A DNA stretch of 64,000 nt from a virus (IMGVR_UViG_3300024261_000005), one strand, 5' to 3'. Shown: positions 36,091 through 53,698, numbered from the stretch's first letter. Numbers and translations are program-made. Notes: generated by a model from the sequence alone, not told the origin.

Positions 36091-36418
36091 AAAAATAAAT
36101 TATTAAATTAAATATTTTAGAAACGCGTTTTTTTAATACGGGTCAAAATGTTGGCCGCAAAAAGTATAATAGTAGGGGTAGGGACAATATACAGGCTGTT
36201 AAATGATAAGTATGGATTATGTTTAGGGATAAGTTAAGCCTATTAGGGGAAGATAGTTATATAGATTATATTTAGGGGTATTTATATTAATGGTAGTTTT
36301 GCACTTTTAAAGTTGCGAGCCTACCCCCGTTTGAGCATGGGTTAAGCTTACCCCCTACACGTCAGTGATAAATCAAACACCTACATCACTGATTTTTTGT
36401 CCCAGAAAGGACATTATT

Positions 36419-36952
36419 ATGGATACTTGGCAAATCATCGTCACAAGCATCATCATCTTTTATATTGCGTTCTTCACTCAATACTTATTCTTAGGATGCT
36501 CTATTTTGGAATTCATCGAGAATAAGAAAATTGAAGCTGAGAACCAAGCCTTCCAGGCATGGAAGCTTGGCTTCATCGCCCCTGGGAAGCTTGCTTACAT
36601 AAATGCAATCGCGTCTCAGCCCTTCTACCTCTTTGAGGTAGCAACCTGGGAGCGAGTACAAGTCTTTCATCACGTTGATGAAGAGTGGTACGATATTGGC
36701 GCTCATGCCTTGAGAGGTTACGTGAAGATCAACAAAGAAGGTGTAATTGGCCTCTCTAAAGGTCGGCATCTCGTGGAGAGTAAGTGTCGTATCATGATTC
36801 GAGTTAATGAGGGTGGGCCTTGCTATATCCTGGACCCTTCACTCAAGGAGGGTGAGAGGAACACGTGGCATGAGCGTTACAAGCCTTATCGTGTGGAGCG
36901 CAGGTTCCAACGTCAGCAGTGGCCAAATCGTTGGGGCGGAACGTCCATCTAA
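36419..36952 (+). CDS. Hypothetical protein with N-terminal TM anchor
   Basis: GAAAGGAC SD before ATG 36419 (track start 36365 less likely). Confidence 0.6.
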   Translation: MDTWQIIVTSIIIFYIAFFTQYLFLGCSILEFIENKKIEAENQAFQAWKLGFIAPGKLAYINAIASQPFYLFEVATWERVQVFHHVDEEWYDIGAHALRGYVKINKEGVIGLSKGRHLVESKCRIMIRVNEGGPCYILDPSLKEGERNTWHERYKPYRVERRFQRQQWPNRWGGTSI

Positions 36953-36974
36953 TCCCCCGCTTATGTTTTTTGGA

Positions 36975-36993
36975 ACCCTTCGGGGGCTTTTTT
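36975..36993 (+). terminator. Rho-independent terminator
   Basis: Short GC stem with TTCG loop followed by T6. Confidence 0.6.
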
Positions 36994-37105
36994 AATTTAC
37001 CCTACTTTAATGGATGATCTAAGCACATCCATCTCTCATGTTGAGGGTAAAGCACATTAGTGCAATGCTTCTACGCAAACTCTAGTTGTCGAAAAGGACA
37101 TCATC

Positions 37106-38227
37106 ATGCGTAACTTATCTATTCTGGCCTTCATTGGCTTCTCTATCATCTTTAGTGGCTGTGGTACAATCCGTACCGCAGCCATTGCGATTCACCATGA
37201 CACCTGTATCGCACACTACAACATGTTTGTGTGCGCTACTCCTGCGCCACCTGCTGCCATCGAGAGCGATAAACCGTGTGTTGGCACTGCTGTACGTAGC
37301 AGTACCAGTGCCACTATGACGACCTTCGGGTCAGTGGGCACTAAGGGTTGTAAACTCCTTCATCAACAACTACAGATAAAATCCCTTAAGAGTAAGGCAG
37401 GGACGAAGTGCAGCATCAACAACAACCAAGAAGTTGTATGCGCTGGGCTGAACGGTCCCATTGCGTTGGCATTCCTTCTTCTTTTCGCTCTCGGTAGAGT
37501 ATTCCCCCGTACAAGAGTAGCGTGCGGTGTTATCGCTATGGTTATTGGCATTGTAACATGTGTGTCAGATGCTAATGCCAAGTGCACTGAGCTCTCATCA
37601 TTTGAAGAGGCCCACAAAACAGGTGACATGTTTGCTCCCATGCGTTTTAATGCTACCGCAAGCATTGCAAAACCGATGCTAGATATGATGTTGAACGAAG
37701 ACGCACAACCGTCAATTCGTAAATTTGCAATTAAAATGATTAACGACCATTATTTTTGCAATGTGGGTAACGACCCTAAGGCGATCATGGAGAAAATAAC
37801 AGCAACCAAAGATTTCCTTAATCTAGAGTGTAAGAAAGAAGGCGATGAAGTTAAGTGTGCCGGCCTTAACCATCCTGGAGCTCTCTTACTCGTTTTATTC
37901 TTCTTCCTGTTAGCTCGATTGGAGGGCAACAGGTCTGTATCCGTAATTGTTCTCAGTGTTATGGGATGCTTGGTGGCTTCTTTTGCCGATGCGGCAACAA
38001 AAGACGGCTGCACCCTCAATAATGAGAGGGTCTATGAGGCTATCGAGAATTCCTGCACGCCTGACATCCTGATGAGCCTGATCGAGGAGGTCGATCTTGA
38101 GTGTACTGAGGAGCACCGTATGGAGGGCGCTTCACTATCCATGGCTGCTGCTGCGGGTGGCCTGCTCCCAAAAGCAGATCTTCGTTTACGCTTTTTAGAA
38201 GCGCTTTGTTGGAAAATGCAACCGTAG
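37106..38227 (+). CDS. Cys-rich lipoprotein with two internal Cys-TM-signal-peptide modules (putative polyprotein)
   Basis: Lipobox FSG|C; repeated CAGLNxP-hydrophobic-R...hydrophobic-AxA. Confidence 0.7.
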   Translation: MRNLSILAFIGFSIIFSGCGTIRTAAIAIHHDTCIAHYNMFVCATPAPPAAIESDKPCVGTAVRSSTSATMTTFGSVGTKGCKLLHQQLQIKSLKSKAGTKCSINNNQEVVCAGLNGPIALAFLLLFALGRVFPRTRVACGVIAMVIGIVTCVSDANAKCTELSSFEEAHKTGDMFAPMRFNATASIAKPMLDMMLNEDAQPSIRKFAIKMINDHYFCNVGNDPKAIMEKITATKDFLNLECKKEGDEVKCAGLNHPGALLLVLFFFLLARLEGNRSVSVIVLSVMGCLVASFADAATKDGCTLNNERVYEAIENSCTPDILMSLIEEVDLECTEEHRMEGASLSMAAAAGGLLPKADLRLRFLEALCWKMQP

Positions 38228-38272
38228 TTGCTCTACTAGTCTTTGAAAGCACACGATTAAGAGACACCTGAA

Positions 38273-38310
38273 GCCCTGAAGTGCACCACTGCACTCCGGG
38301 GCATTTTTTT
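38273..38310 (+). terminator. Rho-independent terminator
   Basis: GCCCTGAAGTGCA-CCAC-TGCACTCCGGGGC followed by A and T7. Confidence 0.7.
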
Positions 38311-38412
38311 AATTTATTCCCTTTAATGGAGAGCTTATAGCGACTCTCCAACCTTCTACCAGAAGGTGCCAATTCTGGCGAGCTATACACCACCAAAGAA
38401 AGGGACGAGAAA

Positions 38413-41400
38413 ATGCGTAACGCCATTATCTCATTCTTCTTCGGCCTGCTGTGGACTACTGTATGCTATTCAGTGTATGTAGCCCCACAAGCAGCGTCTG
38501 TGTCCGTCGTGGATGCAGCGCCAACTTATGTAGCAGAGGCTCCAAAGTCTCTTGCTACCAACCGCACCACACCAGCAACCGTTAAGATTGACCATCTTCG
38601 CAGTACTACCATTAACAGTGGAAGCTCTACCCCTAGTCAGAGTACCTTCCCCATCAACCACAGCGCATTACGTCCTAATAATTGTCGTATTGTGCGCCGT
38701 AGAAAGTTGAAGTCACGAAAAGGTAATCACCTGATTGGTGATGTCTTTATCAAGTTCATTTTCAGTTACCACCGTGTAACTTACATGAGCGACAACTGGT
38801 TATGTTATGAAGAGACGCCTTACACAGAGGCAGACTTCAAAGTGAGCGACCCAGCTAAGGCCCGCAAGAAAGCAAAGAAATCCTGGCGGCAGCTAAAGGG
38901 TGAGGCAACACGTCTTTACCAGAAAGCTGCGGTTTTACGTTTGCGCAATCCAGAATATCCGCCTGCAATAGCTCGTGCGGTGTTTGCCAAAGCACAAAAA
39001 CTTCATCACCGCGCAAATGTTATGAAGAAGGCACTCAAAGAGTCTCAACCAACGGCGCGTCAACAGCGTCTATTCAGACGAGAGCTCTTCAGGGCACAAG
39101 CAAAAACTTGCCAGCAGTTCATTAAAGCTGAGATGGTGAGTAACGTTGATGAAGCCAATGAGCTGATTCAAAAGGTTCTCAGCGGTGATACTAATGGAAC
39201 TGCATTGAGACTATTACAAAAGAATCAATTAGGCCGTATTTACATAAAGCATGGCCTACTGCAAGTAGCGGCAAAAGAGGAAAAGGTTGAGAGACCTACG
39301 AATCCACGAGTCGTACACCACAAAGTAAAGCAAGAAGAAACACCTGTAAGAGTGTGGACGCCATTGATGCGTGCTGCTATCGTTCTTGTCGCACCACTTA
39401 TGTTAGGCATGAGTGCAGACGCAGGTACCCTAGTAGAAGTTGCTTACGCGGGTGCAACCACAGCGACAATACTGAAGATGACCTTGCAGAACATCTTGAA
39501 CACTCCAGCACGTAAGCGTGAAGCGGCGCAAGACGGGTACAATCGCTATGCTGAGCAGTCTATCAAGTCTGCAAAGAGTAGTGAGTGGGATGTCTTCTCG
39601 CTTATGCGCTTTAGCCGTAGTGGCAAGGGTGGAGTGAATCCCAACGGTAAAGCTCACTTAACCGACAAACAAAAGGGCAGATGTGTTCGTATCGTCCAAG
39701 ACAGCATTGGTGGAGCTTACTGTCCGAAGGTAAAGTCATTCGCCAAGATGCTCGGCATTGAGCTCGGCGTTGATAATTGTCTTCGCTACGAGATCGATGA
39801 TCAAATGGATGAGGTACTAAAAGCTGACGTAGTAGAGATACTTATGGCAGCTCGCTTTATTATTCTGTGTGATGGTTTTGCTGTCCACGAGAGTATTGCT
39901 CGTCCATTCATTGAGTACGGTGAGGCGATGTTTGAGAACGCAGTAGGTGTAAGATCTTACTTCCGCTCTTTAGTCACTACACCGTCTTTATACGTGGTCA
40001 ACGAAGATCTACCCATCTTCTTGGCTGACCTAGCCACTTTAATGGGTTGGGTTGAAAACGATGGTGGTGCAGTGCACACGAACCGCCTTTCGATCTCGAT
40101 GCAGTTTAGAGGAATTGCTAAGGTACTCGAGAAGAAATACCATGTTCTCAGTAAGGGCATTTCTACAGGTGCCAAGGTGATCGCTGACATCACTGACGGT
40201 ATTGATAAGCCTAGTTTCGTTAACTACGAGGGCGATGAGCCAGGCCACGTCAAGGGTGAGGTCCGCCTAAGCAAAAAGGTAGACGAATGCATTCGTGTTG
40301 CAGTCGAAGAAGAGTTCAATGCTCTCCACGCTGTGAATGCTGCAACAGAACAACAACTGTGTCTCGTCCATGGCATTGGGATTGAGACCGCCAAGAAGAT
40401 CATCAAAGCACGAGTAGATGCAGGGGGACGATTTACAGACATGGACGCTTTCTACGGTGTGTCTAAACGTCTCGATCCTAATAACCCCGATGCCCTTAAA
40501 GTATTACGCTGGACCTTTGGTCACAAAGAGCGTGTATATAGTGTGGGCTTGTTCCTTGATAAATCTACATTGAAAGGGGCAGATAAAAATGCCTGGGATT
40601 TTGATAAGCTCAACCTTTTCGGCATCAATGGGCAAAATGTTGATTTCTGGGCTATCGCTATCGATCAAATAGGTGGTGAGATTTCATTGGGATGGCAAGT
40701 TGTTCAGCTATTAGATGCCGACTTCATCGGTGGATTGTTTCAGAACCTTGATGGTAGCTATGGGATTGCAGCTGAGAAATTAGCAAAGCAAATTGACAAT
40801 GCTATTGAAGCAGAGCACCCGCTGGTAAAGAAACTCATTAATGCTATCGATGATGAAGGTGGTGAATACGAAGACCTTATGCCAGCTGTGAAGGCCATCT
40901 CTGTCTTGCAGGGCCTTGGCAAGACCGCGTCCAAGCGCATCAGCAATGGTCTCGGTGCAAAGGCGGGCTCCTACTATGTCCAGATGATCGACATGGGTGG
41001 CGACTGGGTCATCATCAAAACACCCAAAGCTAAGGACGGTAAAGGCTTTAAGCGCTGGGCTGCATGTTTCTTCGGCCGCACGCCGAACCAGGGACATGAA
41101 ACTGTGCGTGCTCCCATGGCACTTTCACCATCTTATGTTGGCGCATTCTTGAGGGATTACCTCAAAGATGGACTTGAAGGAGTTGAGAAACATGGCAAAC
41201 AAGCAGAGCAGTTTTGCATGAAACTGAATATTAATTGCGGTCATGACAATGATGCAACTCGTTTACGCTGTCGTGCGATCTTGACTATGTTACCGGGTGT
41301 TATTGATGGCATTGCTCTCGTTGACAGCACTCTTCAACAAAAAGTGTGTGGAGATAACGACGGTGATAGAAATATGATCAGCTTCGATAAGATGCTGGTC

Positions 41401-44400
41401 AGCATCGCCAAGCATATCACCCGTAAACATCCGGCTACGTTCCCTGCGCGTGAGCAGTCAAAGAAATTTGTACTGAACACGTTCGATGACGTGGTCTTGG
41501 AGAAGGGTGGTTGGCTTCGTAGCTTTGATGAATATATGAACACCGGAGACTCTTCAGAGTTACTTCTAGTCTCCAAGTTCCTTTCTGCCCCTGGTGGGAC
41601 TCCAGGACAGGGGAACGTCGGTGGTGTGACGCAATGTGCTGCTGCACCCATGTTGTTCTGCGAATGGCACTGGGTTAAGAAAGGTGGCAAAGACGTTTAT
41701 GAGCCTGTCAATCCAGCTGCTCGTAAGTTAGTCAACTATCTCTATCTGTGTCAGCAGATTGCAATTGATAGGCAGAAATATTACTACCTAGCACCGTCAC
41801 TTCTATTCTGGTTCCTTGCTGACTTGACTGTTGGTGAGGCAGTCATTAAGCAGCTGAAAGCAGGTGGCCATGTAGACTCTAAGTGGCTTCACAGTCATTA
41901 CCCTATTCAGGGTGCTGCTGATATGTCGTTCGAAGAATACCAACAGGCTTGGGAGAATGGTACTCTACCAGAGATCTCAGAAGTAATACCCGGTATGGGT
42001 AAGGGCGCTCTTGGTGGAGAGTCTGTCGCTCCAATGATGTATAATAACGGTCCGCTTTATGTGCACACGGCATGGCAGGTTAATGCCATCAACCTCGGCT
42101 TCGGTTACTTTGACGAGAAAATGATGACTGAGCTTTCTGAGTTCTTCGATAAAGAGACCGCTCAGACTGCTAATTGGGGAGCCATTGTCAAACACCTTGG
42201 TCTCACCATCTCAGCTGAAAAACTGGAAGAAATGTGGGTTTGGCCTAGCTACATCACAGGGTGGGTTGGACTCAATTTCCGGAGCAATCAAGATTTAGCT
42301 CCAGAAACATTCCAATCAGCCCGAATCCACGCAAATAATGTGTGGTTAGAAAAGATGGCAAAAGCTGGACTGAATGCAGATCCTGCAGTTACATTGTCTG
42401 AAAGTCCTCTTGCTGAGGTTCTGAAAGAAGAAGCCGGTGATTACGCTATTGAAATGAAACCGTGGGCTACTCGTTTGCTTGCGACTACTATATACCGTTC
42501 ATATGTCGGTGAAAGTTCAAACGCGGTTGAAGCGATGAGTCAAAGCGCTAGAACCCAAACCGATCATCACGCATCAGGTGCGGACAAGTTGTCGTTCCTT
42601 CGTGCAGCGTTGACATCACGTGACATGAACGTAGAAGTCGCAGATATGTCCGTGATGGATAAGATCAAGAACCTTCGTTTCATCTGGGCTAAAGCTCTTC
42701 AGAATGACAAAATGTCAGATGAGCGACGCTATCAAGTGCTCTGTGCAATGATGCACTTCGGTATCTGTGTAATTAAAGATTGTCTTGATGACATAGAAAA
42801 CGATAAGACCAGTGTTATCGCCACAAATGTGATCTGGGCACTTGAGGATCATACCATTGCTGACATTGCCAAGCTAACTACAAGCGAGGCGTGGAGAGCA
42901 TGGCGCAATGAGAACGATGCAGACCGCAGTACTGCAGTAGCAAAAGAGCGGCGTGAAGCGATGGACAGTGTTCGCAAGTTGATGAATAAAGATGGATTTT
43001 ACCATTGGATTTCAGAGCAAAACCTTAGCACCTTAAAGGCTGAGGATATCGCTACTTGGCTCATCATGGACGGCGAAGAAAGCCACAGTAAGATCATCGA
43101 CTTCATCGGTAGCGATTTCTTTGGTGCTATTGGAGAAGGTTGGGATCGTCAAGAGCTCAAAGAATCTCGCAATAGTGTTGAAGAAGAACTTAACGGTGCT
43201 TTGCAGCATTTGAAGAAAATTCCCGTTGATGACAATTTCATGGATGGGGTTGAAACATATGCTCGAGATCTGATTCAATGGATCCGAGACGATGAGCTAG
43301 AAGCTCAAAGTGGTGAGAAGACTGACGAGGCTCAAATGGCGTGGTATTCTTTGAATGCACGTGAATATGAGCGTGAGGTTGCGTCAATCACTCGACCAAT
43401 CACTTCGATGATTCGTCTTGTGAAGCATCAGATGAGAATCCTCGTTCATAATGTTAACAATGGTGTTAACTTCGAGGACGAGGAAGCAGCTTTCTGGCCT
43501 GCAATCGAAGGAGCCCTCTTCGGCACTCATAAGGAGTTGAATGAGGAAACTGGAGAATGGGAAGAAGTAACTCACGTAGAAAGCCGCATCGTTTACGAAT
43601 TACCAGAGCAACATCTCGCAGAAATGAACCTAGCTGCACTTGAGCAAGGTTATGATGTGGAGATTTTGGTGAATATGATAAATGGTGCTCGCAACTTCTA
43701 CGCAGATGATGAGGGTGAGATTGAGTATCCATCAGAGCCTGAAGAGTATTATCTTACACGAAAAGGGTACATCCATTTGAGCTCTATTATGACGCAAATG
43801 GTTCTTGGAACTAAAAGTCGTGAAGATGTATTGGTATGGCTACTTGCCCAATTTAAAGGCGGTGTAGGTCATGTTACTACTAGTCAACACCTCACTATGG
43901 CGTATGGTCCTGCTGAAGGGCGTGACCACTTCTGGTTCGTAACTTTGGAGCAGTATCCTCAGTTCCACAACGACCTTGTCGTTTGTGAAGTGCAAGCAGC
44001 GTTCGAAGAGTGCTACCCAGAACGTGTGGCTATCGAGTACTTCCATGACGACGATGAAGAGACCCTTGATGCGTTGGAATGCTTTGGTGATCCTCAAAAT
44101 CACAGTGAAGATGATGCGGAGTACTACGAGAATTACTATCGTGAACGATTCGAAGTAGAGCTTTACCTACCACCACTATTTGGTGGCCGTTCTAACTGGG
44201 ATGAGTTGTACGATGGTAAGTACAGTAAGTTCTATGACCAGCAGCTCGTTATGACCCCTTATAAGATGCTACGTACGTATGCATTCATGATGGAGGGTAA
44301 AGATGTGTCTCAAATGAGCCTTCCTACTGAAGTGCGTGATTTCCAGAATGACGTCTTTGGCTACACTGTTGGTGACAGTAAAAAGCAAGATAAGTCACAG

Positions 44401-44940
44401 CAAAGTAGAGAAGCTGACAAACGTACTGGACGTAAGCCTAAACACACAGCTCTAAAGAACAACATGACTAAGAAGTCTTGTGCTACTTGGACATGGGCTG
44501 GAGTTGAGAAACCAATCACTTCAGATCTTGATGTTGATTTTAACGGTTCTGACAACTTGCAGGAGAGTAACAATTTCTGTGATATCAGTGTCCGTGGTTA
44601 CGATAACCATCAGTATGATGAGTGTTGGCGTGGTGCTTACAGCTTGGTGCGTTTTACACCAAGTTTATTGTGGAGCTTCGCTAATGTTATGGAGAGCGGC
44701 GACTTCCAAGAAATCAATGCACGATCTATTGCCAAGGTTGGTACGTCCTCTGTTCGTCGCTACTGTGTGGGTTTCCGTAAGGCTAACTTCACTCAAATGG
44801 TCAAGGGCGTCACAGTAAAGTCTGTAGAGATGAATTCGACAGTGGTACGCGCCCTCTTTGATATCCTTGCGAATGAAGAAGAGTTGGAAATCGGTATGGA
44901 TGCCTTAGGTGGTCCTGACCGTCCATTCACTGTGGATTGA
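38413..44940 (+). CDS. Single-chain two-barrel RNA polymerase (YonO/QDE-1 RdRP-like) with HhH insertion
   Basis: Ordered motifs NDGG, QFR...SKG, GRTP, CGDNDGD (41347-41367), GNVG, QIAIDRQK; HhH VNAATEQQLCLVHGIGIETAKKII. Confidence 0.75.
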   Translation: MRNAIISFFFGLLWTTVCYSVYVAPQAASVSVVDAAPTYVAEAPKSLATNRTTPATVKIDHLRSTTINSGSSTPSQSTFPINHSALRPNNCRIVRRRKLKSRKGNHLIGDVFIKFIFSYHRVTYMSDNWLCYEETPYTEADFKVSDPAKARKKAKKSWRQLKGEATRLYQKAAVLRLRNPEYPPAIARAVFAKAQKLHHRANVMKKALKESQPTARQQRLFRRELFRAQAKTCQQFIKAEMVSNVDEANELIQKVLSGDTNGTALRLLQKNQLGRIYIKHGLLQVAAKEEKVERPTNPRVVHHKVKQEETPVRVWTPLMRAAIVLVAPLMLGMSADAGTLVEVAYAGATTATILKMTLQNILNTPARKREAAQDGYNRYAEQSIKSAKSSEWDVFSLMRFSRSGKGGVNPNGKAHLTDKQKGRCVRIVQDSIGGAYCPKVKSFAKMLGIELGVDNCLRYEIDDQMDEVLKADVVEILMAARFIILCDGFAVHESIARPFIEYGEAMFENAVGVRSYFRSLVTTPSLYVVNEDLPIFLADLATLMGWVENDGGAVHTNRLSISMQFRGIAKVLEKKYHVLSKGISTGAKVIADITDGIDKPSFVNYEGDEPGHVKGEVRLSKKVDECIRVAVEEEFNALHAVNAATEQQLCLVHGIGIETAKKIIKARVDAGGRFTDMDAFYGVSKRLDPNNPDALKVLRWTFGHKERVYSVGLFLDKSTLKGADKNAWDFDKLNLFGINGQNVDFWAIAIDQIGGEISLGWQVVQLLDADFIGGLFQNLDGSYGIAAEKLAKQIDNAIEAEHPLVKKLINAIDDEGGEYEDLMPAVKAISVLQGLGKTASKRISNGLGAKAGSYYVQMIDMGGDWVIIKTPKAKDGKGFKRWAACFFGRTPNQGHETVRAPMALSPSYVGAFLRDYLKDGLEGVEKHGKQAEQFCMKLNINCGHDNDATRLRCRAILTMLPGVIDGIALVDSTLQQKVCGDNDGDRNMISFDKMLVSIAKHITRKHPATFPAREQSKKFVLNTFDDVVLEKGGWLRSFDEYMNTGDSSELLLVSKFLSAPGGTPGQGNVGGVTQCAAAPMLFCEWHWVKKGGKDVYEPVNPAARKLVNYLYLCQQIAIDRQKYYYLAPSLLFWFLADLTVGEAVIKQLKAGGHVDSKWLHSHYPIQGAADMSFEEYQQAWENGTLPEISEVIPGMGKGALGGESVAPMMYNNGPLYVHTAWQVNAINLGFGYFDEKMMTELSEFFDKETAQTANWGAIVKHLGLTISAEKLEEMWVWPSYITGWVGLNFRSNQDLAPETFQSARIHANNVWLEKMAKAGLNADPAVTLSESPLAEVLKEEAGDYAIEMKPWATRLLATTIYRSYVGESSNAVEAMSQSARTQTDHHASGADKLSFLRAALTSRDMNVEVADMSVMDKIKNLRFIWAKALQNDKMSDERRYQVLCAMMHFGICVIKDCLDDIENDKTSVIATNVIWALEDHTIADIAKLTTSEAWRAWRNENDADRSTAVAKERREAMDSVRKLMNKDGFYHWISEQNLSTLKAEDIATWLIMDGEESHSKIIDFIGSDFFGAIGEGWDRQELKESRNSVEEELNGALQHLKKIPVDDNFMDGVETYARDLIQWIRDDELEAQSGEKTDEAQMAWYSLNAREYEREVASITRPITSMIRLVKHQMRILVHNVNNGVNFEDEEAAFWPAIEGALFGTHKELNEETGEWEEVTHVESRIVYELPEQHLAEMNLAALEQGYDVEILVNMINGARNFYADDEGEIEYPSEPEEYYLTRKGYIHLSSIMTQMVLGTKSREDVLVWLLAQFKGGVGHVTTSQHLTMAYGPAEGRDHFWFVTLEQYPQFHNDLVVCEVQAAFEECYPERVAIEYFHDDDEETLDALECFGDPQNHSEDDAEYYENYYRERFEVELYLPPLFGGRSNWDELYDGKYSKFYDQQLVMTPYKMLRTYAFMMEGKDVSQMSLPTEVRDFQNDVFGYTVGDSKKQDKSQQSREADKRTGRKPKHTALKNNMTKKSCATWTWAGVEKPITSDLDVDFNGSDNLQESNNFCDISVRGYDNHQYDECWRGAYSLVRFTPSLLWSFANVMESGDFQEINARSIAKVGTSSVRRYCVGFRKANFTQMVKGVTVKSVEMNSTVVRALFDILANEEELEIGMDALGGPDRPFTVD

Positions 44941-45107
44941 TACACAGTAGGGGTTGAAATTCCTCTATAGCCTTATTGAGTTGTGCGTTACCAACTTGAT
45001 GGTGAATGTTTAGCATGAGTAAGGGGTTCACGTCCCGCTAAGCGTCTAATGCAGACTTACTCAAATTCGTCTTAATCAACCAGCTTGCAACATGAAAGGT
45101 TATACCC

Positions 45108-45536
45108 ATGCAAGAACTACAAGACAAAACCCTGCTGGAGATTGCTAAAGCTTTCAAAGGCTCCTTCATCTACGCCCCAGGTGGCACAGTCAATATTGGC
45201 TGTACTATCTTTGACGGGCCAGCACCTAAAAAGAAAGCTACTCAAGCTCCCAGTGAGGCCCCATCAACACCTAGACGTCGTCATCACAAGAAGGGGGAGG
45301 AAGTTACTGTCCCTCCCAAGGGTCAATCGACCCCACCCCCTTCTTGTGAAAGCGACGAAGATGATAATGGTGTAGAAGCTACCTCTGCTTCTGAAGAGAA
45401 TAACAACTCTGCAGGAAACGAGGCTAGCGAGAACTCTGATGCGTCTAATACTAATGCGTCAGCTCCTCCCTTTAGTGCTTGGGGTGCTCGTCGTCCTCGT
45501 AGTACTCGTAGAGTACCCCCAGCCGGGTCGGCTTAA
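45108..45536 (+). CDS. Hypothetical, largely disordered protein
   Basis: GAAAGG SD; low-complexity Ser/Asn/Glu/Pro content. Confidence 0.6.
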   Translation: MQELQDKTLLEIAKAFKGSFIYAPGGTVNIGCTIFDGPAPKKKATQAPSEAPSTPRRRHHKKGEEVTVPPKGQSTPPPSCESDEDDNGVEATSASEENNNSAGNEASENSDASNTNASAPPFSAWGARRPRSTRRVPPAGSA

Positions 45537-45857
45537 TGCCTTGACTTCTTGCCCTCAACTTCAACCGCTCCACCTTCATAATTGATTTTAACCGCTCCAC
45601 TTTCGACTCTCTATAAGCTTTATAACTAGCTGTTAGCTTATAGTTTCAATTCAAATAGCTTCTTCATCTTTTGCTACATCATCCAGATTCAATACTCCGC
45701 CAGTATAGCTGACTCCGCACGCGGAGCCTGGGTTGCAAGCAACCCGCGCTCGCAAGCTCGCTTGCCTTGGAGTAAAGCAAGGTGATTATTATAATCTTTT
45801 TTTTATTTATTCTAAATATTAAGAAGATTCAACTTTTTTAAGTAAAAGGAGACAGAA

Positions 45858-46328
45858 ATGTCTGATCAATTAAAACTTCACGATGACGCAAATGAGTTAA
45901 GTTTACCCGAGGCACGATTGACACGGCTAAAGGTTTTACGCGACAAGGTTAATGAGAAAGCGGCATGGAATGGACGAGGTGATAAAAAGCCTGCACGTTC
46001 TCTGTTGGTTGTTGATGGTTCTGACGCAGTGCAAATTGCTTCATACCTCGCAGCTAAAGCTCAATCGTCAACAGTTACCTTTGAGGTAGCTGAGCACAAG
46101 CTCCGTGGCATCTTTGATGACCACATCCGTGAGCTTGAGCGTCAAATCGCTGACGCGGAGAAGGCCAACCAGCCCGATCCAATGCAGGCCGTTCGAGAGA
46201 TGCAAGCAGCAATGCAAGCACAGCAAGCCCAATTCATGCAAATGATGGTGGGCATGATGAGTGGTACTTCTCCCGAGGCTCCTGCTCCTGTCGAAACTGC
46301 TCCCGAGGAAACTCCTGCTGAGTCGTGA
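45858..46328 (+). CDS. Hypothetical coiled-coil protein with Gln/Met-rich C-terminus
   Basis: AAGGAG SD. Confidence 0.7.
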   Translation: MSDQLKLHDDANELSLPEARLTRLKVLRDKVNEKAAWNGRGDKKPARSLLVVDGSDAVQIASYLAAKAQSSTVTFEVAEHKLRGIFDDHIRELERQIADAEKANQPDPMQAVREMQAAMQAQQAQFMQMMVGMMSGTSPEAPAPVETAPEETPAES

Positions 46329-46479
46329 TTTTAGCGAAAGCTGCTCTTCGGAGCAGTTAGTAGTAATCTCGTAACACTTAGGCGTGACGAGACGAGACGT
46401 AAAGTCTCAAGCCATATACTTATATATTAAGGCTTAAAACTAATATATATGATTTAGACTTTTATCATAAAAAAGTCGG

Positions 46480-48460
46480 CAAAATCTTAGTTGATGCAAA
46501 CGGACGTAATGTCGCCAGTTAAATCATTGAGTAATGTCGTGCCGGATCCCTATGTGGACGAGGTGCTTGATGAGTCTACGAGTGTTGAGATACACTTGCA
46601 GCATCCATTCTAAATGGATGTCTCTCCGGAGAACGAAACATTTGGATGTAGAAATACATCAGCGCTTGGGGAAGCGCAATAGAAATATCCAACCAAAGCA
46701 CCAACAGAAAGGGAAAAAATGTTGTAGTGTTTTTGATAGGTGGGACTCGAGGCCTCTTCACTGAGGTAATGATATCCACCGTCAGCCGAAATGCTGACCG
46801 CTTAGCACCCTAAGGCTAAGTAGACTTGAGAAGTTTTTGGGTTTCATCACCTAACTGGTATCCTCTACCAGTAAATAAAACAGAGGTTTTGGAGAATAGT
46901 TTAGGGCTATTCTAGGGTTTGCAGCTATATTGCCGCCCACCATTTAAAATAAGTAGTGAATACCCGCTGGAGAGATTAAGCATCTCCAGTCTGCCTTACA
47001 CAGTCTGATTAGTGTATGAGGTAGGAAGGGGAGTGACTCTTAAAGTCAAAAGTGCCAACCGAACAGATAGGTTGGTTCCGAGTTCTCATGCTTGGAGGTA
47101 AGTCATAGTTAATGGGTGCCATCTCTCAGGATCGAGTGCGATGGTAGAAGCGGAGTTAGCAGTAGAGCGATCTTACGGTGTGCGCACACCAAACTGCTAT
47201 AAAGACTCTGTGGAGGAAAGTGTAGTTGAGATGAAAGTCTTGATGAACAACCTCGTTAAAACAATGTAGGCATGACGTCCTGAATACTCTTCTGAGTGAA
47301 TGGGCCTGATGTGTTGCTTTCGGGCAACGAATCATGACGAGTTACCAATCTCATTAAAATTGGTTCCATGAGCTACGAGAATGGCAACATGGGTAATTAG
47401 CTAGGGTGTGCAAGCCGAAGCTGCGGAGAAGGAACTCCGTCAAATCAAACGTCCCGGTATTCATATACAATTGACGCCCGCAACCTGATTGTGGAAATCG
47501 AAAGGTATGATAAGAACCGGGGCTATTAGATACGTAACAACGTACTAGCTCATCATTCGGATGAGCAGGTAGTCAACAACTTCTCAGGGACCATATGGTG
47601 TGTGCACGCACCTCCCTACCGTTATTTCCTAGGAATAACGACAATAAGGTATAGCTTCTAAGGAATATATAAGAAGCTGAACGGATTTAACTCAAAGCGG
47701 TTTGAGTTTCGTCTGAAAAAAGATCCCCATCATGTAAGATCCTACCAGGTCTAAAGGATGGGGGGACGAAGTAGTCAAGGGTTTAAAAACCCCAGTCCCA
47801 GCTACTTCAAACAAGGTGTGTTGGAGGGGTGGAAGAACTGCAAGTATACTTGTGGATCTTCCACCTCAGAAGGCATATCTTGGGCTCAAGCTGTAATACA
47901 GCCTAAGCCACCCCGTCGCCAACGGGGTCAATAAATCGCATAAGGTTCGCTTTATGTTATTCATTGACCTTCTTGGTCATTAATCATGCAGTAGGACCTC
48001 CCTTGACAAGGAGGGCGATCTGCACCAGCGACAGAAGTCAACTGTCCCTGGTTGAGTGGTGGAAAGCTCCCTTTTTATAGCTGAACAATTCCACTCTGTG
48101 ATAGGGTCCTCCCGAGAAAAGGAGCATCTTTGGACCGACCACCCCATATTATATTGTGGGATCTGGAAGGCGACAAGGTGAAGACCCGAACGAGCGCCAC
48201 GATCAAAGTGGCCTCACCTATCAAGCCCCGCATCGAAGTGATGTGGGCCGGAGTAGAGTTCCCCAGTTAGGGTAGAGCTCCTCCGATGAGAAATGTGCGA
48301 TTAGAGCGCGCAGAGTGGGGTAAGGTCCAGCTGATTTAGGGCCCAGGGAGAAAGTCAAAATGTGCGTTTAAAGCACGTGAGAACTGTTTTCCTAGGGGGT
48401 AGAGACTTATTATTTTGGCCAAAAATGACGAGATGTGACAATTTACTTGTCTTTCCTTGT
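46480..48460 (+). ncRNA. Candidate giant structured ncRNA (about 2 kb; boundaries and strand approximate)
   Basis: No credible ORF; dozens of near-perfect hairpins and nested long-range helices containing G-U pairs on the + strand. Confidence 0.65.
47271..47336 (+). ncRNA. Type III hammerhead-like fold with variant core
   Basis: CATGA-C-GTCC...GGGC-CTGATGT-GTTGC(TTTCGG)GCAAC-GAA-TCATG. Confidence 0.45.
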
Positions 48461-48536
48461 CATAATGAGGTTAAAAGTAGCTATAAATACCTAATATATA
48501 AGGGTTTATAGTTATAAAGATAGAAAGTCGGGGTGC

Positions 48537-48624
48537 ACCTAGTCAAACCCTAGTCCAGCCCTACTCCAACCCTACCTCAGCCCTAGTCCAACCCTAGTCC
48601 AACCCTACCTCAAAGCTAGGCAAA
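48537..48624. repeat. 11-bp degenerate tandem repeat, about 8 copies (consensus CCCTAGTCCAA)
   Basis: acctagtcaaa/ccctagtccag/ccctactccaa/ccctacctcag/ccctagtccaa/ccctagtccaa/ccctacctcaa/agctaggcaaa. Confidence 0.9.
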
Positions 48625-48796
48625 CCCAACAATAGGGGCTCTAAAAGCCCCTTTCAGCAGTAAACCTGCTACAGTCCATCTCTCTGTTGCGAGACATATC
48701 TTACTCACTTGTTGTTTAGTGGGGTAGTTTTGTCTCTTTAAGCTACTTGCACAAATGTTAAATTGTGCTTTAGTTTTGTTCCTTATAGAGAGAAAA

Positions 48797-49075
48797 ATGG
48801 ATATGCGCGCCCTTTTAAGAAGTGCGCTATCCCAATCACCACCGAAAGAAAGAGCAAGGCTCATGAATGAACCCTCCCCCAACCTTATAGAGGAACTCAA
48901 AGGTGACTCGATAAAGGACTTCGACAAAGCGAAAGCCTTTATCAAAACCCACCCACAATGGGCTGAGTTCTTCGAGTCTTGGGGCCAGCCAGGATCGCTT
49001 GGTGACCTCATTCTTTTAGTCACCTTTAAAGGTGACATTATTGTGAATTGTCATGTCCATCAGGGCATGCACTAA
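48797..49075 (+). CDS. Hypothetical protein
   Basis: ORF in the track (48755); purine-rich SD-like sequence before ATG 48797. Confidence 0.45.
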   Translation: MDMRALLRSALSQSPPKERARLMNEPSPNLIEELKGDSIKDFDKAKAFIKTHPQWAEFFESWGQPGSLGDLILLVTFKGDIIVNCHVHQGMH

Positions 49076-49085
49076 TTCACACACA

Positions 49086-49135
49086 ACGCCTAGCCCTCTT
49101 GGGGGACTTTGATAGATTCGACTTCTATTAGGTGT
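49086..49135 (+). ncRNA. Mini tRNA-like element (acceptor + one hairpin + T arm)
   Basis: ACGCCTA/TAGGTGT acceptor; ATAGA-TTCGACT-TCTAT T arm. Confidence 0.5.
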
Positions 49136-49139
49136 TTTA

Positions 49140-49277
49140 GGAAAATCCGTAGAGATAGAGAACCAGCAAGTTCTTTATTGAAGCCGTTATAAGTTTTGCT
49201 GAGCTTATATTCGAAAAAAGGATGGTGCTCGCGCGCGGTTATTGCGAGTTGCAGGGGTTCGACTCCTCTGTATTCCG
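49140..49277 (+). ncRNA. tRNA-like RNA with internal kissing-loop domain
   Basis: GGAAAAT/GTATTCC acceptor (one mismatch); AGGGG-TTCGACT-CCTCT T arm; complementary loops CAGCAA/TTGCTG. Confidence 0.55.
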
Positions 49278-49293
49278 TTACATCAGCCTATGG

Positions 49294-49497
49294 GGAGAGA
49301 ATCACTAATCCCGGTATAGTGGTTTGTCTGCAACCTTGACAACTGTGCAAAGAGTCAACAACGTGACGGAAGTAGGACGCCTTAACGTTATTGGAAGTAT
49401 GCATGGTTAGACATCGATTGAGATGTGGTTACCGCCACATGTCCTAAACCTCAATCTAAAGCAGACAGAATAGAAGGTTCGAATCCTTCCCTCTCCA
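49294..49497 (+). tRNA. tRNA-like RNA (possibly Cys-GCA) with about 130-nt structured insert in the anticodon arm
   Basis: GGAGAGA/CCTCTCC acceptor; CACT/AGTG D arm; TTTGTCTGC/GCAGACAGA extended anticodon stem; GAAGG-TTCGAAT-CCTTC T arm. Confidence 0.6.
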
Positions 49498-51740: not shown

Positions 51741-51813
51741 ACAACAACAACAGGCAAAACATCTTCTCTAAAAGAGCAAAATAACATTCCTTAAACAAAC
51801 AAAGGAAAATATT

Positions 51814-52137: not shown

Positions 52138-52211
52138 AATGGAAGAAGCTCTATTTACTCGGATTATCATCACAATTATCTGTTTCGCAATATTTCTATG
52201 AAAGGTTTTCG

Positions 52212-52484
52212 ATGAAAACACTACTTACAATTATCATCACAATGTTGGCAAACCCAGCATTCGCAGACACACCATGTGAGAAACAAGTATCACATGTTGA
52301 AAGCATTCACAAGCAAATCATCTCACTCGCCAAAGAGTGCGACGAATTACCATTAAGTAAGCAACTGACCTGCTATCAAGTGCTAGCCGGGAATCAAGAG
52401 GCACTCGCAGGCGCACTCTACCATGCAGAAATAATCTGTACAAAAATAGCAATCACAAAACTTCGAAAGGAAGTAAAAAGATGA
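52212..52484 (+). CDS. Small secreted Cys-containing protein
   Basis: Signal peptide ending AFA. Confidence 0.6.
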   Translation: MKTLLTIIITMLANPAFADTPCEKQVSHVESIHKQIISLAKECDELPLSKQLTCYQVLAGNQEALAGALYHAEIICTKIAITKLRKEVKR

Positions 52485-52876
52485 ACATAATCAACAACAT
52501 CGCAACAGGGCTAGAGGAAATCTATCTGCAAAGAGATAAGATCCCTGAGTTATGGACTCGAGTCACAACCTTCTATGCAGAGAATGTATGGAAGGACCTC
52601 ATCGACCTCGGAGAGAAGGTCCACATGGTCAAGCAGACGCATTCTCCAAAGAGTGCAATCGCTTCGACTTTCCTTCCTCGAACCGTGAGAAACTTCAAGC
52701 AGTTCGACAAAGAGATCTCGGAATTTATGGACTCTCCTGAAGAAGAGCCCGAAGCAACAGAAACAGCCGAAAAGCACTCAGCAAAGCTCTTGCATACCAA
52801 CACGAATGGAAAGCCATTCAACTGGAGCGGCGCTGGAGACTACGACAAAGACGCAGTAAACAATGTGGCTGATTGA
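52481..52876 (+). CDS. Hypothetical protein
   Basis: ATGA overlap with the upstream gene; SD. Confidence 0.6.
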   Translation: MNIINNIATGLEEIYLQRDKIPELWTRVTTFYAENVWKDLIDLGEKVHMVKQTHSPKSAIASTFLPRTVRNFKQFDKEISEFMDSPEEEPEATETAEKHSAKLLHTNTNGKPFNWSGAGDYDKDAVNNVAD

Positions 52877-53198
52877 ATTCAGCTTCACATTCTACATAAC
52901 TTTGAGCTTCTTGATGTTTGACAGACATCAAACCTTCGAACAATAAGGAATCACATGACTGCGATTATAATAATTCTATGCCTATTCAACTCAGTCATCC
53001 TCCTTAAATTGGCTTGGCTCCTATCAGAGCCATATTAATCCTAAAACCGCTAAGGTAACATAGCGGTATATAAATAACGAGGCGTCACTCTCATAATGTC
53101 TAATAGGCAGAGAGAACTACACCCACGCCTACAATGGATAAACATGAAGAAAGTAGAATCTTCTTTGTGCCAAGAGTGTTACTTGGGGTGATTTATAT

Positions 53199-53362
53199 GC
53201 GGAAGTAGCTCAAAGGTAGAGCGTCAACCATACCGGGATAAAAGTGGTGATCAAAAGGGCTAGAAATCCTTGCGGTCGCCACTGAAAGACCAAACGTACG
53301 TGCTTTCTAGCGTAGGGGTAATACAAGTTGAAGGCATGCAGGTTCGAATCCTGTCTTCCGCC
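53199..53362 (+). tRNA. tRNA body (Gly-like scaffold) with about 91-nt pseudoknotted insert in the anticodon loop
   Basis: GCGGAAG/CTTCCGC acceptor; GCTC/GAGC D arm; TCAAC/GTTGA anticodon stem enclosing 98 nt; GCAGG-TTCGAAT-CCTGT T arm. Confidence 0.75.
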
Positions 53363-53366
53363 GCAA

Positions 53367-53438
53367 AGACTCTTAGCTCAACGGTAGAGCAGCGGACTTT
53401 TAATCCGTTGGCTCTGGGTTCGAATCCCAGAGGGTCTA
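53367..53438 (+). tRNA. tRNA-Lys(UUU)
   Basis: Full cloverleaf; GCGGA-CT-TTT-AA-TCCGT; no encoded CCA. Confidence 0.92.
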
Positions 53439-53530
53439 TTCTTTATTTCTTTAAATAGGTGTATTATCTCAACTTTCTTTAAAAAAGAGTGGTTGGTGTT
53501 TACGGATAATGCACCTTTTTAAACATGTAA

Positions 53531-53603
53531 GGGCCTATAGCTCAGTGGTTAGAGCTCCCGACTCATAATCGGCAGGTCCCAGGTTCAAATCCTGGTGGGC
53601 CCA
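53531..53603 (+). tRNA. tRNA with CAU anticodon (Ile2-like; Met not excluded)
   Basis: Full cloverleaf GGGCCTATAGCTCAGTGGTTAGAGC..CCGA-CT-CAT-AA-TCGG.. Confidence 0.9.
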
Positions 53604-53698
53604 TTCACCTAAAAGACATAGAACTCAGATGATTATGAAGTAGTAGCATACTGCTTCTCATGTTTCTATTACCGCAAAATCCAAATAAAGGCAAAAAG

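What the first reader, a model, noticed from the sequence alone, without database searches (positions are those of the whole stretch)
36300..53610. Candidate new system: YonO/RdRP-type polymerase next to a giant structured RNA and a family of tRNA-scaffolded RNAs
Seen: a 2175-aa two-barrel polymerase gene followed, after two small genes, by about 2 kb of ORF-free hairpin-dense sequence, an 11-bp array and at least four tRNA-shaped RNAs with abnormal interiors, all on one strand. Known: SPbeta YonO is a DNA-dependent RNAP related to eukaryotic QDE-1-type RdRPs, and phages encode large ncRNAs (GOLLD, ROOL) near tRNAs, but those are under 1 kb. Inference: the RNA may be a product, template, scaffold or regulator of this polymerase, forming an RNA-centred early module.
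Basis: partly seen in the sequence, partly recalled or inferred. Interest (0 to 1): 0.9.

Follow-up and report, generated by a model that had tools for sequence, protein, structure and literature searches.

The report
Phage polymerase beside ribozyme-punctuated RNA locus
A roughly 160-kb marine phage carries a giant QDE-1/crAss-type RNA polymerase gene followed by about 3.3 kb of conserved non-coding DNA that appears to encode a new large structured RNA with hammerhead-type junctions and tRNA-shaped modules, but nothing yet shows that the polymerase and the RNA work together.

Summary
ORF 38413-44940 (2175 aa) folds like QDE-1, RDR2, crAss phi14:2 gp66 and Thermus-phage RNA polymerases, and keeps an invariant DxDGD motif. 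After two small genes comes a stretch with no long reading frame under codes 11, 4 or TAG=Q. Every related contig with enough downstream sequence has the same gap.

It is not featureless hairpin DNA. It is bounded by two copies of the box TGACGAGAYG. That box occurs only twice in a complete 161.8-kb relative, and it sits promoter-like before genes in distant relatives. The first unit (about 2.0 kb) contains two hammerhead-type three-way junctions, a conserved module (M2) and a 3' domain, all with compensatory base changes on the + strand. The second unit holds the 11-nt array and T-arm or tRNA-shaped RNAs whose anticodon loops are replaced by 91-130-nt structured inserts.

The window's two hammerhead cores are non-consensus, and Rfam recognises none of these elements. 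The central 1.6 kb differs between close relatives, and both RNA types occur with both polymerase clades, so a specific polymerase-RNA partnership is unproven. The best reading is two ribozyme- and tRNA-punctuated non-coding transcription units in the early region.

The parts
38413..44940 (+). Gene for a 2175-aa single-chain two-barrel RNA polymerase (QDE-1 / crAss gp66 type). The DxDGD motif is at residues 981-985 and a helix-hairpin-helix at 641-684.
   Evidence: ORF. The motif is invariant in 19 homologues. AF2 model of residues 470-1400 has pLDDT 78 and pTM 0.77. Foldseek gives QDE-1 E 2e-5 and gp66 (6vr4) 5e-3. VIA-align gives Z 10.6 to QDE-1 and 10.2 to P74 gp62 / P32 gp64. BFVD hits include crAss-like and phi14:2 proteins. 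Weak HHH_3 match.
45108..45536 (+). Small gene s1 (142 aa, low complexity), no known family.
   Evidence: ORF. No Pfam or PHROG hit. 31-64% identical in clade-I relatives.
45695..45805 (+). Conserved structured element between s1 and s2: a CUCCG/CGGAG hairpin, two GCAA-loop hairpins, then a U-run.
   Evidence: Aligned in 8 loci, including those with clade-II polymerases.
45858..46328 (+). Small gene s2 (156 aa), no known family.
   Evidence: ORF. No Pfam hit, and only one marginal PHROG match to a family of unknown function (phrog_18532, E 0.0099). 47-87% identical in clade-I relatives.
46384..46400 (+). Box 1, GTGACGAGACGAGACGT: a promoter-like signal at the start of RNA unit 1.
   Evidence: Only two TGACGAGAYG sites in the window. 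Present at the same place in 12 related loci. Promoter-like position in L031 and L032. Only 2 copies in a complete 161.8-kb relative.
46384..48425 (+). RNA unit 1: about 2.0 kb, non-coding, multi-domain.
   Evidence: No ORFs under three codes. The 5' and 3' ends are conserved in all relatives, while the middle is variable.
46534..46641 (+). HH1: type-III hammerhead-type junction. A 2-bp stem II closes three hairpins. The predicted cleavage site is after C46538. The window copy has U at core position 3.
   Evidence: Motif scan. Seven-locus alignment with 94.8% of cells paired, against about 42% in slid controls, and 7 pairs with double changes. Recognised by model R1 in six relatives at 20-43 bits, and in the window at 14 bits, E 0.08.
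47073..47270 (+). Block shared with locus L009 (81% identity, including an exact 34-mer).
   Evidence: blastn; k-mer comparison.
47272..47335 (+). HH2: compact type-III hammerhead-type junction with a variant core (CUGAUGU ... GAAU, that is U9 and U15.1-A16.1).
   Evidence: The same variant occurs in L009. The family alignment of 19 copies has 12 of 13 pairs with compensatory changes. The MFE fold gives stems I and II.
47358..47444 (+). M2 module, homologous by structure to a module of the type-A RNAs and of L009 and L010.
   Evidence: Nine-sequence alignment: 94.9% paired, 10 pairs with double changes, and G-U pairs that are invariant (cols 70-89) or near-invariant (cols 47-68, 7 of 9).
48205..48420 (+). 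Conserved 3' domain of unit 1. It has a 67-nt-spaced duplicated hairpin specific to the window and ends in a U-rich tract.
   Evidence: Seven-locus alignment with 10 of 30 pairs showing double changes. Direct repeat D2.
48426..48502 (+). Box 2 (TGACGAGATG) plus an AT-rich box (CTAATATATAAG at 48491-48502): the start of RNA unit 2.
48538..48607 (+). Array of 11-nt units (CCTAGTCCAAC), 6.4 copies.
   Evidence: TRF; repeat family D1. The stretch containing it (window 48355-48850) is 82% identical in L019 and L030; the array itself was not examined in the relatives.
48755..49075 (+). Orphan 106-aa ORF, doubtful as a gene. The region folds strongly (z -7.5).
   Evidence: No tblastn match in any relative; folding z-score.
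49140..49277 (+). Multi-hairpin RNA ending in a canonical T arm, with no full acceptor or D arm.
   Evidence: T-loop motif; fold. It lies in the 49080-49620 stretch that is 93% identical to L019.
49294..49497 (+). tRNA-shaped RNA with acceptor, D and T arms and an anticodon stem. The anticodon loop is replaced by a 130-nt two-hairpin insert.
   Evidence: ARAGORN with introns allowed. The MFE fold is a cloverleaf. The insert is almost invariant in L019.
53199..53362 (+). tRNA-shaped RNA with a 91-97-nt structured insert in the anticodon loop. No U33 would remain after removing the insert.
   Evidence: Rfam tRNA model, 46.8 bits; ARAGORN.
53367..53603 (+). Ordinary tRNA-Lys(UUU) at 53367-53438 and tRNA-Met(CAU) at 53531-53603.

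Best explanation
This is the early-region RNA module of a roughly 160-kb marine myovirus.

Shown: a 2175-aa protein with the fold and DxDGD motif of QDE-1/crAss-gp66-type two-barrel RNA polymerases. It is followed by two small genes and about 3.3 kb of non-coding, + strand, structure-conserving sequence. That sequence is split into two units by two copies of the box TGACGAGAYG.

Inferred: each box is, or lies next to, a phage-specific promoter. Unit 1 (about 2.0 kb) would be transcribed as a long precursor. Its 5' leader would be removed by the HH1 hammerhead, leaving a 5'-OH at G46539. The second hammerhead-type junction (HH2) may split it further, into pieces of about 0.74 and 1.15 kb. Unit 2 (about 1.2 kb) carries a C-rich 11-nt repeat tract and T-arm/tRNA-shaped modules. 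These modules would recruit RNase P, RNase Z and the CCA enzyme, so that the structured inserts are released as stable tRNA-scaffolded RNAs.

The end products are most likely structural, decoy or sponge RNAs acting on host factors early in infection. The fast-changing central cassette fits an arms-race role.

The polymerase most likely works as a DNA-dependent transcriptase, as gp66 and YonO do. It is the only RNA-polymerase candidate seen in this work. That it reads these two boxes is possible (about one in three) but not shown.
For: Polymerase fold and motif.

No ORFs under three genetic codes.

A syntenic gene-free gap in all relatives with enough downstream sequence, including distant ones.

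Compensatory changes and strand-specific G-U pairs: HH1, M2 and the 3' domain.

Hammerhead family: 19 copies, all but one weak hit on the gene strand, 12 of 13 pairs covarying, G10.1-C11.1 invariant. One copy has U3/A8, the natural covariation reported in PMC3088659.

The same class also sits in the 5' UTRs of protein genes, at window 56336-56404 and L022 15695-15764. This fits a leader-trimming role.

Box TGACGAGAYG: exactly two copies in the window and in the complete genome G001, both at the unit borders. In L031 and L032 there are 5-6 copies of the 10-mer (6-8 of the 9-mer core GACGAGAYG), all on the gene strand. Most of them, including the one before the polymerase gene, lie between a terminator hairpin with a T-run and the next start codon.

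tRNA bodies with inserts recur in L004 and L028. The insert-bearing region is 93% identical to L019, against about 80% in the flanks.

No Sigma70_r2 match in G001.
Against: Rfam 15 gives no hammerhead hit at E<=10, even for the canonical-core copy in L003.

Both window hammerheads have non-consensus cores (U3 with G8; U9 with U15.1-A16.1). According to PMC3088659, the U15.1-A16.1 variant gives low activity.

MFE folds reproduce the three-way junction for only some copies.

Folding z-scores are only modestly below those of coding controls.

The promoter role of the box rests on position alone. It keeps the same sequence across polymerases that are only 24-31% identical, which is unusual for a polymerase-specific promoter.

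RNA middle type and polymerase clade assort independently.

The 11-bp period and the neighbouring AT-rich tracts would also suit a DNA-level role.
Confidence: 0.6

Rival explanations
1. One unprocessed giant (2 kb or more) ornate RNA works physically with the neighbouring polymerase, as its dedicated product, its template for RNA-dependent synthesis, or its scaffold or regulator.
For: Gene order is conserved across polymerases that are 24-88% identical. The conserved 5' and 3' ends could be a common handle. The box flanking the RNA is otherwise absent from a complete genome. QDE-1 relatives can copy RNA, as shown by the PDB entries 7y7p and 7y7q listed.
Against: Hammerhead-type junctions lie at the 5' end and in the middle, and a second box splits the region. 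The apparent long-range closing helix is no better than noise and is not conserved. Both RNA types pair with both polymerase clades. The polymerase-s1-s2 block is swapped without the RNA. The closest characterised phage relatives (gp66, P23-45-type enzymes, YonO) are DNA-dependent, from established knowledge.
Confidence: 0.15
2. The region is mainly a DNA element, such as a replication origin or protein-binding control region. In this reading the phased 11-bp iterons and AT-rich tracts are unwinding or binding sites, and the RNA structures are secondary.
For: The 11-bp period matches one helical turn, with 6.4 copies. Two inverted copies of the unit, 11 nt apart, lie 1.6 kb away at 46902-46921. 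Conserved AT-rich boxes follow each TGACGAGAYG. In G001 the locus lies about 10 kb from a genome end that carries direct terminal repeats.
Against: Compensatory changes that keep pairing, and G-U pairs that would be A-C on the other strand, point to selection on the + strand RNA. The hammerhead core positions are conserved. Full tRNA cloverleaf bodies are present. The array is only 70 bp of the 3.3 kb.
Confidence: 0.12
3. The stretch is decayed coding sequence or a junkyard of degenerate ribozyme and tRNA relics with no current function.
For: Non-consensus hammerhead cores in the window. An orphan ORF at 48755-49075 and a split gene at 49806-50069. The variable middle.
Against: The gap is kept in every relative at similar length. 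Modules show compensatory substitutions. The insert-bearing tRNA-like region is more conserved (93%) than the neighbouring genes. No frame is open in any code tested.
Confidence: 0.05

Closest known systems
Virion-packaged RNA polymerase gp66 of crAss-like phage phi14:2 (PDB 6vr4), with its fold relatives QDE-1/RDR2, Thermus-phage P23-45/P74 polymerases and SPbeta YonO
   Same: A single chain of about 2.2 kb-scale protein size (2175 aa here, against 2166 residues in chain 6vr4_A). It has a two-barrel catalytic core and a DxDGD motif. It is phage-encoded and unrecognised by Pfam.
   Different: No sequence-level similarity, even with a profile. The host phage is a myovirus related by its portal to the 0305phi8-36 / ME3 jumbo phages, not a crAss-like podovirus. 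The family is rare, with 25 clusters among 1.84 billion representatives. Template preference, promoters and packaging are untested.
Clustered hammerhead ribozymes in phage and prophage genomes (Perreault et al. 2011, PMC3088659)
   Same: Several type-III hammerhead junctions on the gene strand of a phage, some just upstream of start codons. Two-base-pair stems II, U3-A8 covariation and U15.1-A16.1 variants are all described there.
   Different: Here two junctions lie inside a long non-coding unit rather than flanking genes. HH1 carries three extra hairpins on stem II. U9 and U3-with-G8 cores recur. The Rfam models do not score any copy.
Large ornate phage-associated non-coding RNAs GOLLD and ROOL
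   Same: Large, multi-domain, phage-borne, of unknown function, lying close to tRNA genes and including tRNA-like parts (PMC12286853 and PMC5737381 for the classes; this locus).
   Different: No match to their Rfam models. The unit is about 2 kb rather than under 1 kb, and it is probably cut by ribozymes. The central part is replaced between close relatives. It is flanked by a dedicated box motif.
Intron-bearing tRNA genes and the laboratory 'tRNA scaffold' for expressing RNAs
   Same: Complete acceptor, D and T arms with extra sequence in the anticodon loop.
   Different: The inserts are 91-130 nt, too short for group I introns by general knowledge, and have no group I match. ARAGORN's best cloverleaf fits place them at positions 33/34 and 38/39, not at the canonical 37/38 site. 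Removing them leaves no U33 in the 53199 element. The insert sequence itself is strongly conserved, as expected for a functional cargo rather than an intron.

Membership tests
Two-barrel (double-psi beta-barrel) single-chain RNA polymerases of the QDE-1 / gp66 / YonO type | Metal-binding DxDGD loop in the catalytic barrel | tested here: met
   GDNDGD at 980-985. D981, D983, G984 and D985 are invariant in 19 homologues down to 16% identity.
Two-barrel (double-psi beta-barrel) single-chain RNA polymerases of the QDE-1 / gp66 / YonO type | Fold of the catalytic core matches solved members | tested here: met
   Foldseek: QDE-1 E 2e-5, RDR2 6e-4, gp66 5e-3. VIA-align: Z 10.2-10.6 over 430-460 residues, standing above multisubunit RNAP subunits at Z about 7. 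TM-scores are low (0.2-0.3) because the domain arrangement differs.
Two-barrel (double-psi beta-barrel) single-chain RNA polymerases of the QDE-1 / gp66 / YonO type | Sequence-profile membership (Pfam RdRP family or PDB sequences) | tested here: not met
   No Pfam polymerase family, no PHROG, and no PDB hit with either the sequence or a profile.
Two-barrel (double-psi beta-barrel) single-chain RNA polymerases of the QDE-1 / gp66 / YonO type | Template-directed RNA synthesis, and choice of DNA or RNA template | not testable with these tools
   Needs the purified enzyme.
Hammerhead ribozyme, type III | Three-way junction with stems I, II and III kept by covariation | tested here: met
   19 copies, 96.3% of cells paired against 48% or less in slid controls, and 12 of 13 pairs with double changes. 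For HH1 alone.
Hammerhead ribozyme, type III | Consensus core C3 U4 G5 A6 N7 G8 A9 / G12 A13 A14 / A15.1-U16.1 / H17, with a G10.1-C11.1 pair | tested here: inconclusive
   Fully met in HH1 of six relatives and in L003 17566-17629. L022 has the U3-A8 covariation. The window's HH1 has U3 with G8. The window's HH2 has U9 and U15.1-A16.1. The copy at 56336 has U9.
Hammerhead ribozyme, type III | Match to the curated covariance models | tested here: not met
   No Rfam 15 hit at E<=10 on 121-nt windows around two copies, nor in the wider scans.
Hammerhead ribozyme, type III | Self-cleavage giving 5'-OH and 2',3'-cyclic phosphate ends | not testable with these tools
   Needs in-vitro transcription or end-specific RNA-seq.
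tRNA | Cloverleaf with acceptor, D and T arms and a conserved T loop | tested here: met
   53199-53362 scores 46.8 bits with RF00005. 49294-49497 and 53199-53362 are found by ARAGORN when introns are allowed.
tRNA | Seven-nucleotide anticodon loop with U33, or an intron of a known type at a known site | tested here: not met
   The loops are replaced by 91-130 nt. ARAGORN's best cloverleaf fits place the junctions at 33/34 and 38/39. There is no group I intron match.
GOLLD / ROOL large RNAs | Match to the family covariance model | tested here: not met
   No hit at gathering score or at E<=5.
Iteron-type replication origin | Phased direct repeats next to an AT-rich tract and an initiator protein | tested here: inconclusive
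   A phased array of 11 bp x 6.4 and AT-rich boxes are present. No initiator gene was identified, and origin activity is not testable.

The most novel reading that the evidence does not exclude
The TGACGAGAYG boxes are promoters read by the giant two-barrel polymerase. In this phage lineage that enzyme has become a dedicated non-coding-RNA polymerase whose only two promoters in the whole genome drive a ribozyme-processed 2-kb RNA and a set of tRNA-scaffolded RNAs. Together these would form a self-contained RNA-producing module, delivered early, that acts against host defences.
Probability: 0.15. Interest if true: 0.9.

Novelty: new variant of a known kind. Interest (0 to 1): 0.66.

Why it matters
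Very few large structured RNAs are known from phages, and none has an established function. This locus adds a family that Rfam does not contain. It is roughly twice the size of GOLLD or ROOL, it has ribozyme-type junctions and tRNA-shaped carriers built in, and it has sharply defined borders.

It lies beside a rare, unannotated branch of the QDE-1/crAss-type polymerases. It is flanked by a box that occurs nowhere else in a complete 162-kb genome. That makes a direct test possible: does this polymerase start at this box?

The tRNA bodies carrying conserved 91-130-nt cargoes would, if expressed, be a natural counterpart of the laboratory tRNA-scaffold trick. The recurrent U3, U9 and U15.1-A16.1 cores offer a natural series for asking how much deviation a hammerhead tolerates.

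Tried and rejected
Alternative genetic codes (TAG=Q, code 4) do not open a frame in 46.3-48.7 kb.

Rfam found only tRNAs, both at gathering score and at E-value thresholds, on the window and on six loci.

One viral-contig scan was wasted on a mistyped pattern. The corrected 29-mer found nothing. A 17-mer from the 3' domain gave four contigs (L012-L015) with no similarity to any reference, so these are chance matches. The HH1 pattern found only the three IMG/VR contigs already known to carry the polymerase.

A 25-mer from the type-A RNA has no match in 185,579 species genomes, so there is no prophage or host clue.

PDB sequence and profile searches with the polymerase found nothing meaningful. 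INPHARED tblastn found no relative.

A candidate long-range helix, 46850-46868 with 48253-48271, is no better than other windows and is not kept in L001.

The initial impression was that the RNA is far more conserved than the proteins. This was withdrawn once L019 and L030 showed that neighbouring coding DNA is equally conserved, and that the polymerase block is the outlier.

RtcB and Sigma70_r2 are absent from the complete relative G001. The T7-type polymerase search is uninformative because its control did not ring.

No complex prediction was attempted, because no protein-protein claim is made.

Full report
SETTING. The window is part of a tailed phage. The minus-strand genes at 1-33.8 kb include a large terminase, portal, major head protein and tail sheath. 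The portal is 31-36% identical to those of the jumbo myoviruses Bacillus phage 0305phi8-36 and Acinetobacter phage ME3. The polymerase protein occurs on contigs up to 161.8 kb. A relative in IMG/VR is a complete 161,781-bp genome with direct terminal repeats. The related contigs come from marine and other aquatic metagenomes. No whole genome is held for the window itself.

THE POLYMERASE. ORF 38413-44940 encodes 2175 residues.
- Sequence searches: Pfam sees only a weak helix-hairpin-helix at 641-684. PHROGs, PDB sequences and INPHARED see nothing. A 19-sequence profile also finds no solved relative.
- Rarity: a full HMMER scan of 1.84 billion representatives gives 25 clusters, most about 1,700-2,300 aa long plus a few short fragments.
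- Motif: all homologues examined keep DNDGD. D981, D983, G984 and D985 are invariant down to 16% identity.
- Fold: an AlphaFold model of residues 470-1400, built on that alignment, has pLDDT 78 and pTM 0.77. Foldseek ranks QDE-1 first (E 2e-5), then plant RDR2, the virion polymerase gp66 of crAss-like phage phi14:2 (5e-3), and the Thermus-phage enzymes P32 gp64 and P74 gp62.
- Second alignment: re-alignment gives Z 10.2-10.6 over 430-460 residues for these. That stands above the largest subunits of cellular polymerases at Z about 7.
- Viral models: in the viral model library the best matches are uncharacterised phage proteins, crAss-like proteins and phi14:2 gp66.
It is not supported by any sequence family. 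Its template, promoters and location in the virion are untested.

THE POLYMERASE IS THE VARIABLE PART. Among close relatives there are two polymerase clades. Clade I is the window, L001, L003, L004, L010 and L011, at 65-90% identity to one another. Clade II is L007, L009 and L019/L030, at about 28% identity to clade I. Yet L030 matches the window at 66-90% nucleotide identity both upstream (28.6-38.4 kb) and downstream (from 45.7 kb). No match lies between 38392 and 45691. So the polymerase with its two small genes behaves as an exchanged block. This corrected my first impression that the RNA is exceptionally conserved. Its conservation is similar to that of neighbouring coding DNA.

THE NON-CODING REGION IS REAL AND SYNTENIC. 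No ORF of 100 aa or more lies between 46329 and about 48615 on either strand, or before 48755 on the + strand. Recoding TAG or TGA does not open one. Gene calls on related contigs leave the same gap of 1.2 to over 2.9 kb after the polymerase and two small genes. Distant relatives (polymerase 24-32% identical) show ORF-poor stretches at the same place. Folding energies are moderately low on the + strand: mean z about -2.9, against -1.8 on the minus strand and -1.6 in coding controls.

BORDERS. The 9-mer GACGAGAYG occurs at two places in the 64-kb window, a tandem pair at 46386/46391 and one copy at 48427. Each is followed within about 60 nt by CTAATATATAWG. The same box lies just after the second small gene in 12 related loci, including L024, L025 and L028.

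In two distant relatives from IMG/VR (L031, L032) the 10-mer TGACGAGAYG occurs 5-6 times (6-8 for its 9-mer core), always on the gene strand. Most copies sit between a hairpin-plus-T-run and the next start codon, including in front of the polymerase gene. That is where a promoter should be.

In the complete genome G001 the 10-mer TGACGAGAYG occurs exactly twice. Both copies are at the borders of the large RNA. G001 has no Sigma70_r2 match. The T7-type polymerase search was uninformative. I read the box as a promoter, or as part of one. This rests on position only.

UNIT 1 (46384-48425). The 5' 170 nt and the 3' 300 nt align with all relatives. The central 1.6 kb has no nucleotide similarity to the 'type A' RNAs of L001, L003, L004, L007, L011 and L019. 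It shares blocks with L009 (81% over 199 nt, including an exact 34-mer) and with L010. Three parts show selection on RNA structure.

1. HH1 (46534-46641) has the type-III hammerhead layout: stem III, cleavage nucleotide C, stem I hairpin, CUGAUGA, stem II, GAA, stem III.
 - In six relatives every consensus core position is present. Stem II is two pairs (G10.1-C11.1, U-A) closing three hairpins.
 - On seven sequences, 94.8% of cells pair against about 42% when partners are slid. Seven pairs carry double changes.
 - The window copy has U at position 3.

2. HH2 (47272-47335) is a compact junction of the same class, with CUGAUGU and U15.1-A16.1. L009 has the same variant with all three stems changed.
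 - A covariance model of five compact copies finds 19 copies in 340 kb. All but one weak hit are on the gene strand.
 - Copies found that were not used to build the model include all HH1 copies, a copy 85 nt after the polymerase stop in L022, and a third window copy at 56336-56404, about 20 nt upstream of a ribosome-binding site.
 - In that alignment 12 of 13 pairs show compensatory changes and G10.1-C11.1 never varies.
 - L022 reads UUGAAAU, that is U3 with A8. This is the natural covariation of the C3-G8 pair reported by Perreault et al. (PMC3088659).

3. M2 (47358-47444) aligns by structure with a module of type A, L009 and L010. It shows 94.9% pairing, ten pairs with double changes, and G-U pairs that are invariant or nearly so; on the other strand these would be mismatches.

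The 3' domain (48205-48420) has ten of thirty pairs with double changes and ends in a U-rich tract.

Against membership in the hammerhead class:
- Rfam's models give nothing at E<=10, even on the consensus-core copy in L003.
- MFE folding reproduces the junction for only some copies.
- The window's own cores deviate. The cited paper found low but detectable activity for a U15.1-A16.1 variant.

UNIT 2 (48426 to about 49650). After box 2 comes the array of 6.4 units of 11 nt. Next is an orphan ORF with no relative anywhere, in a strongly folding stretch. Then come a hairpin cluster ending in a T arm (49140-49277) and a complete tRNA body with a 130-nt two-hairpin insert (49294-49497). This stretch is 93% identical to L019, more than its surroundings, and the insert is almost unchanged.

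A second tRNA body with a 91-97-nt insert lies at 53199-53362, next to normal tRNA-Lys and tRNA-Met. Similar insert-bearing tRNA bodies occur inside the RNA regions of L004 and L028. The inserts are not at the canonical intron site and have no group I signature. At 53199, removing the insert would leave no U33. They look like cargo on a tRNA scaffold rather than introns.

HOW IT LIKELY WORKS. The following is shown:
- a polymerase of the gp66/QDE-1 fold;
- two box-delimited non-coding units;
- hammerhead-type junctions with covariation;
- tRNA-shaped modules with conserved inserts.

The following is inferred. The boxes start transcription. HH1 trims the leader, as the same class appears to do for at least two protein genes. 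HH2 may split unit 1. RNase P and RNase Z would cut at the tRNA-like bodies. The products would be stable structured RNAs that act on host factors, and the replaceable central cassette would reflect an arms race.

That the polymerase makes these RNAs is possible. It is the only candidate phage polymerase seen, and the box is phage-specific. But the box is unchanged across polymerases of 24-31% identity, and RNA type and polymerase clade assort independently. I put this at about one in three.

ALTERNATIVES. A DNA-level role (origin or binding array) is suggested by the 11-bp phase, the AT-rich boxes, and an inverted pair of units at 46902-46921. It cannot explain strand-specific covariation. 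A single unprocessed giant RNA bound to the polymerase remains possible, but the one candidate closing helix failed the conservation check. Decay is unlikely, given the conserved length and structure.

NOVELTY. Each ingredient has precedent: gp66-type polymerases, hammerhead clusters in phages, large phage RNAs near tRNAs. None of the sequences here belongs to a curated family, and the combination is not described in the papers I could search. That combination is a box-delimited 2-kb RNA unit with internal hammerhead-type junctions, plus tRNA bodies carrying conserved cargo, beside a rare polymerase branch. I did not test that note.

Noticed in passing
window 56336-56404 (+): A third hammerhead-type junction (41.8 bits with model R1, core CUGAUGU). 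It lies about 20 nt upstream of the ribosome-binding site and ATG at 56423, so it is probably a 5'-UTR leader-trimming element of a protein gene.
   Followed up: partly
window 45695-45805 (+): A conserved structured element between the two small genes: a CUCCG/CGGAG hairpin, two GCAA-loop hairpins that vary in sequence between loci, then a U-run. It is kept at 74-97% even in loci whose flanking small genes are unrelated. It may be a small RNA or an attenuator.
   Followed up: partly
window 38392-45691 compared with L030: The polymerase and both small genes form the only block without nucleotide similarity between otherwise 66-90% identical phages. This suggests cassette-like replacement or very fast evolution of the polymerase module.
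   Followed up: partly
window 49806-50069 (+): The homologue of a 100-aa protein of relatives (L011 12606-12908) is split in the window by a stop or frameshift, into a 22-codon start and a 60-aa remainder.
   Followed up: no
window 62860-62925 (+): An acceptor-stem plus T-arm minihelix (GGAUU ... CUGAGGUUCAAUUCCUCAG ... AAUCC) with no D or anticodon arm, just after the gene ending at 62858.
   Followed up: no
window 46902-46921 and 48544-48563: Two UAGGG units 11 nt apart in unit 1 are 85% complementary to the 11-nt array of unit 2. This could be RNA-RNA pairing between the units, or inverted protein sites on DNA.
   Followed up: no
L032 8016-8080 and L031 7804-7880: In distant relatives the TGACGAGACG box is followed directly by T-arm-like hairpins (GGTTCGATTCC). 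The box therefore drives tRNA-like RNAs there too.
   Followed up: no
L022 15695-15764: A hammerhead-type junction 85 nt after the polymerase stop, with U3 and A8 (UUGAAAU). This is the compensating form of the C3-G8 core pair.
   Followed up: partly
window 38413-39480: The polymerase begins with a hydrophobic segment and a very basic, low-complexity N-terminal region of about 470 residues that lies outside the modelled core. Its role (targeting, packaging, ejection) was not examined.
   Followed up: no
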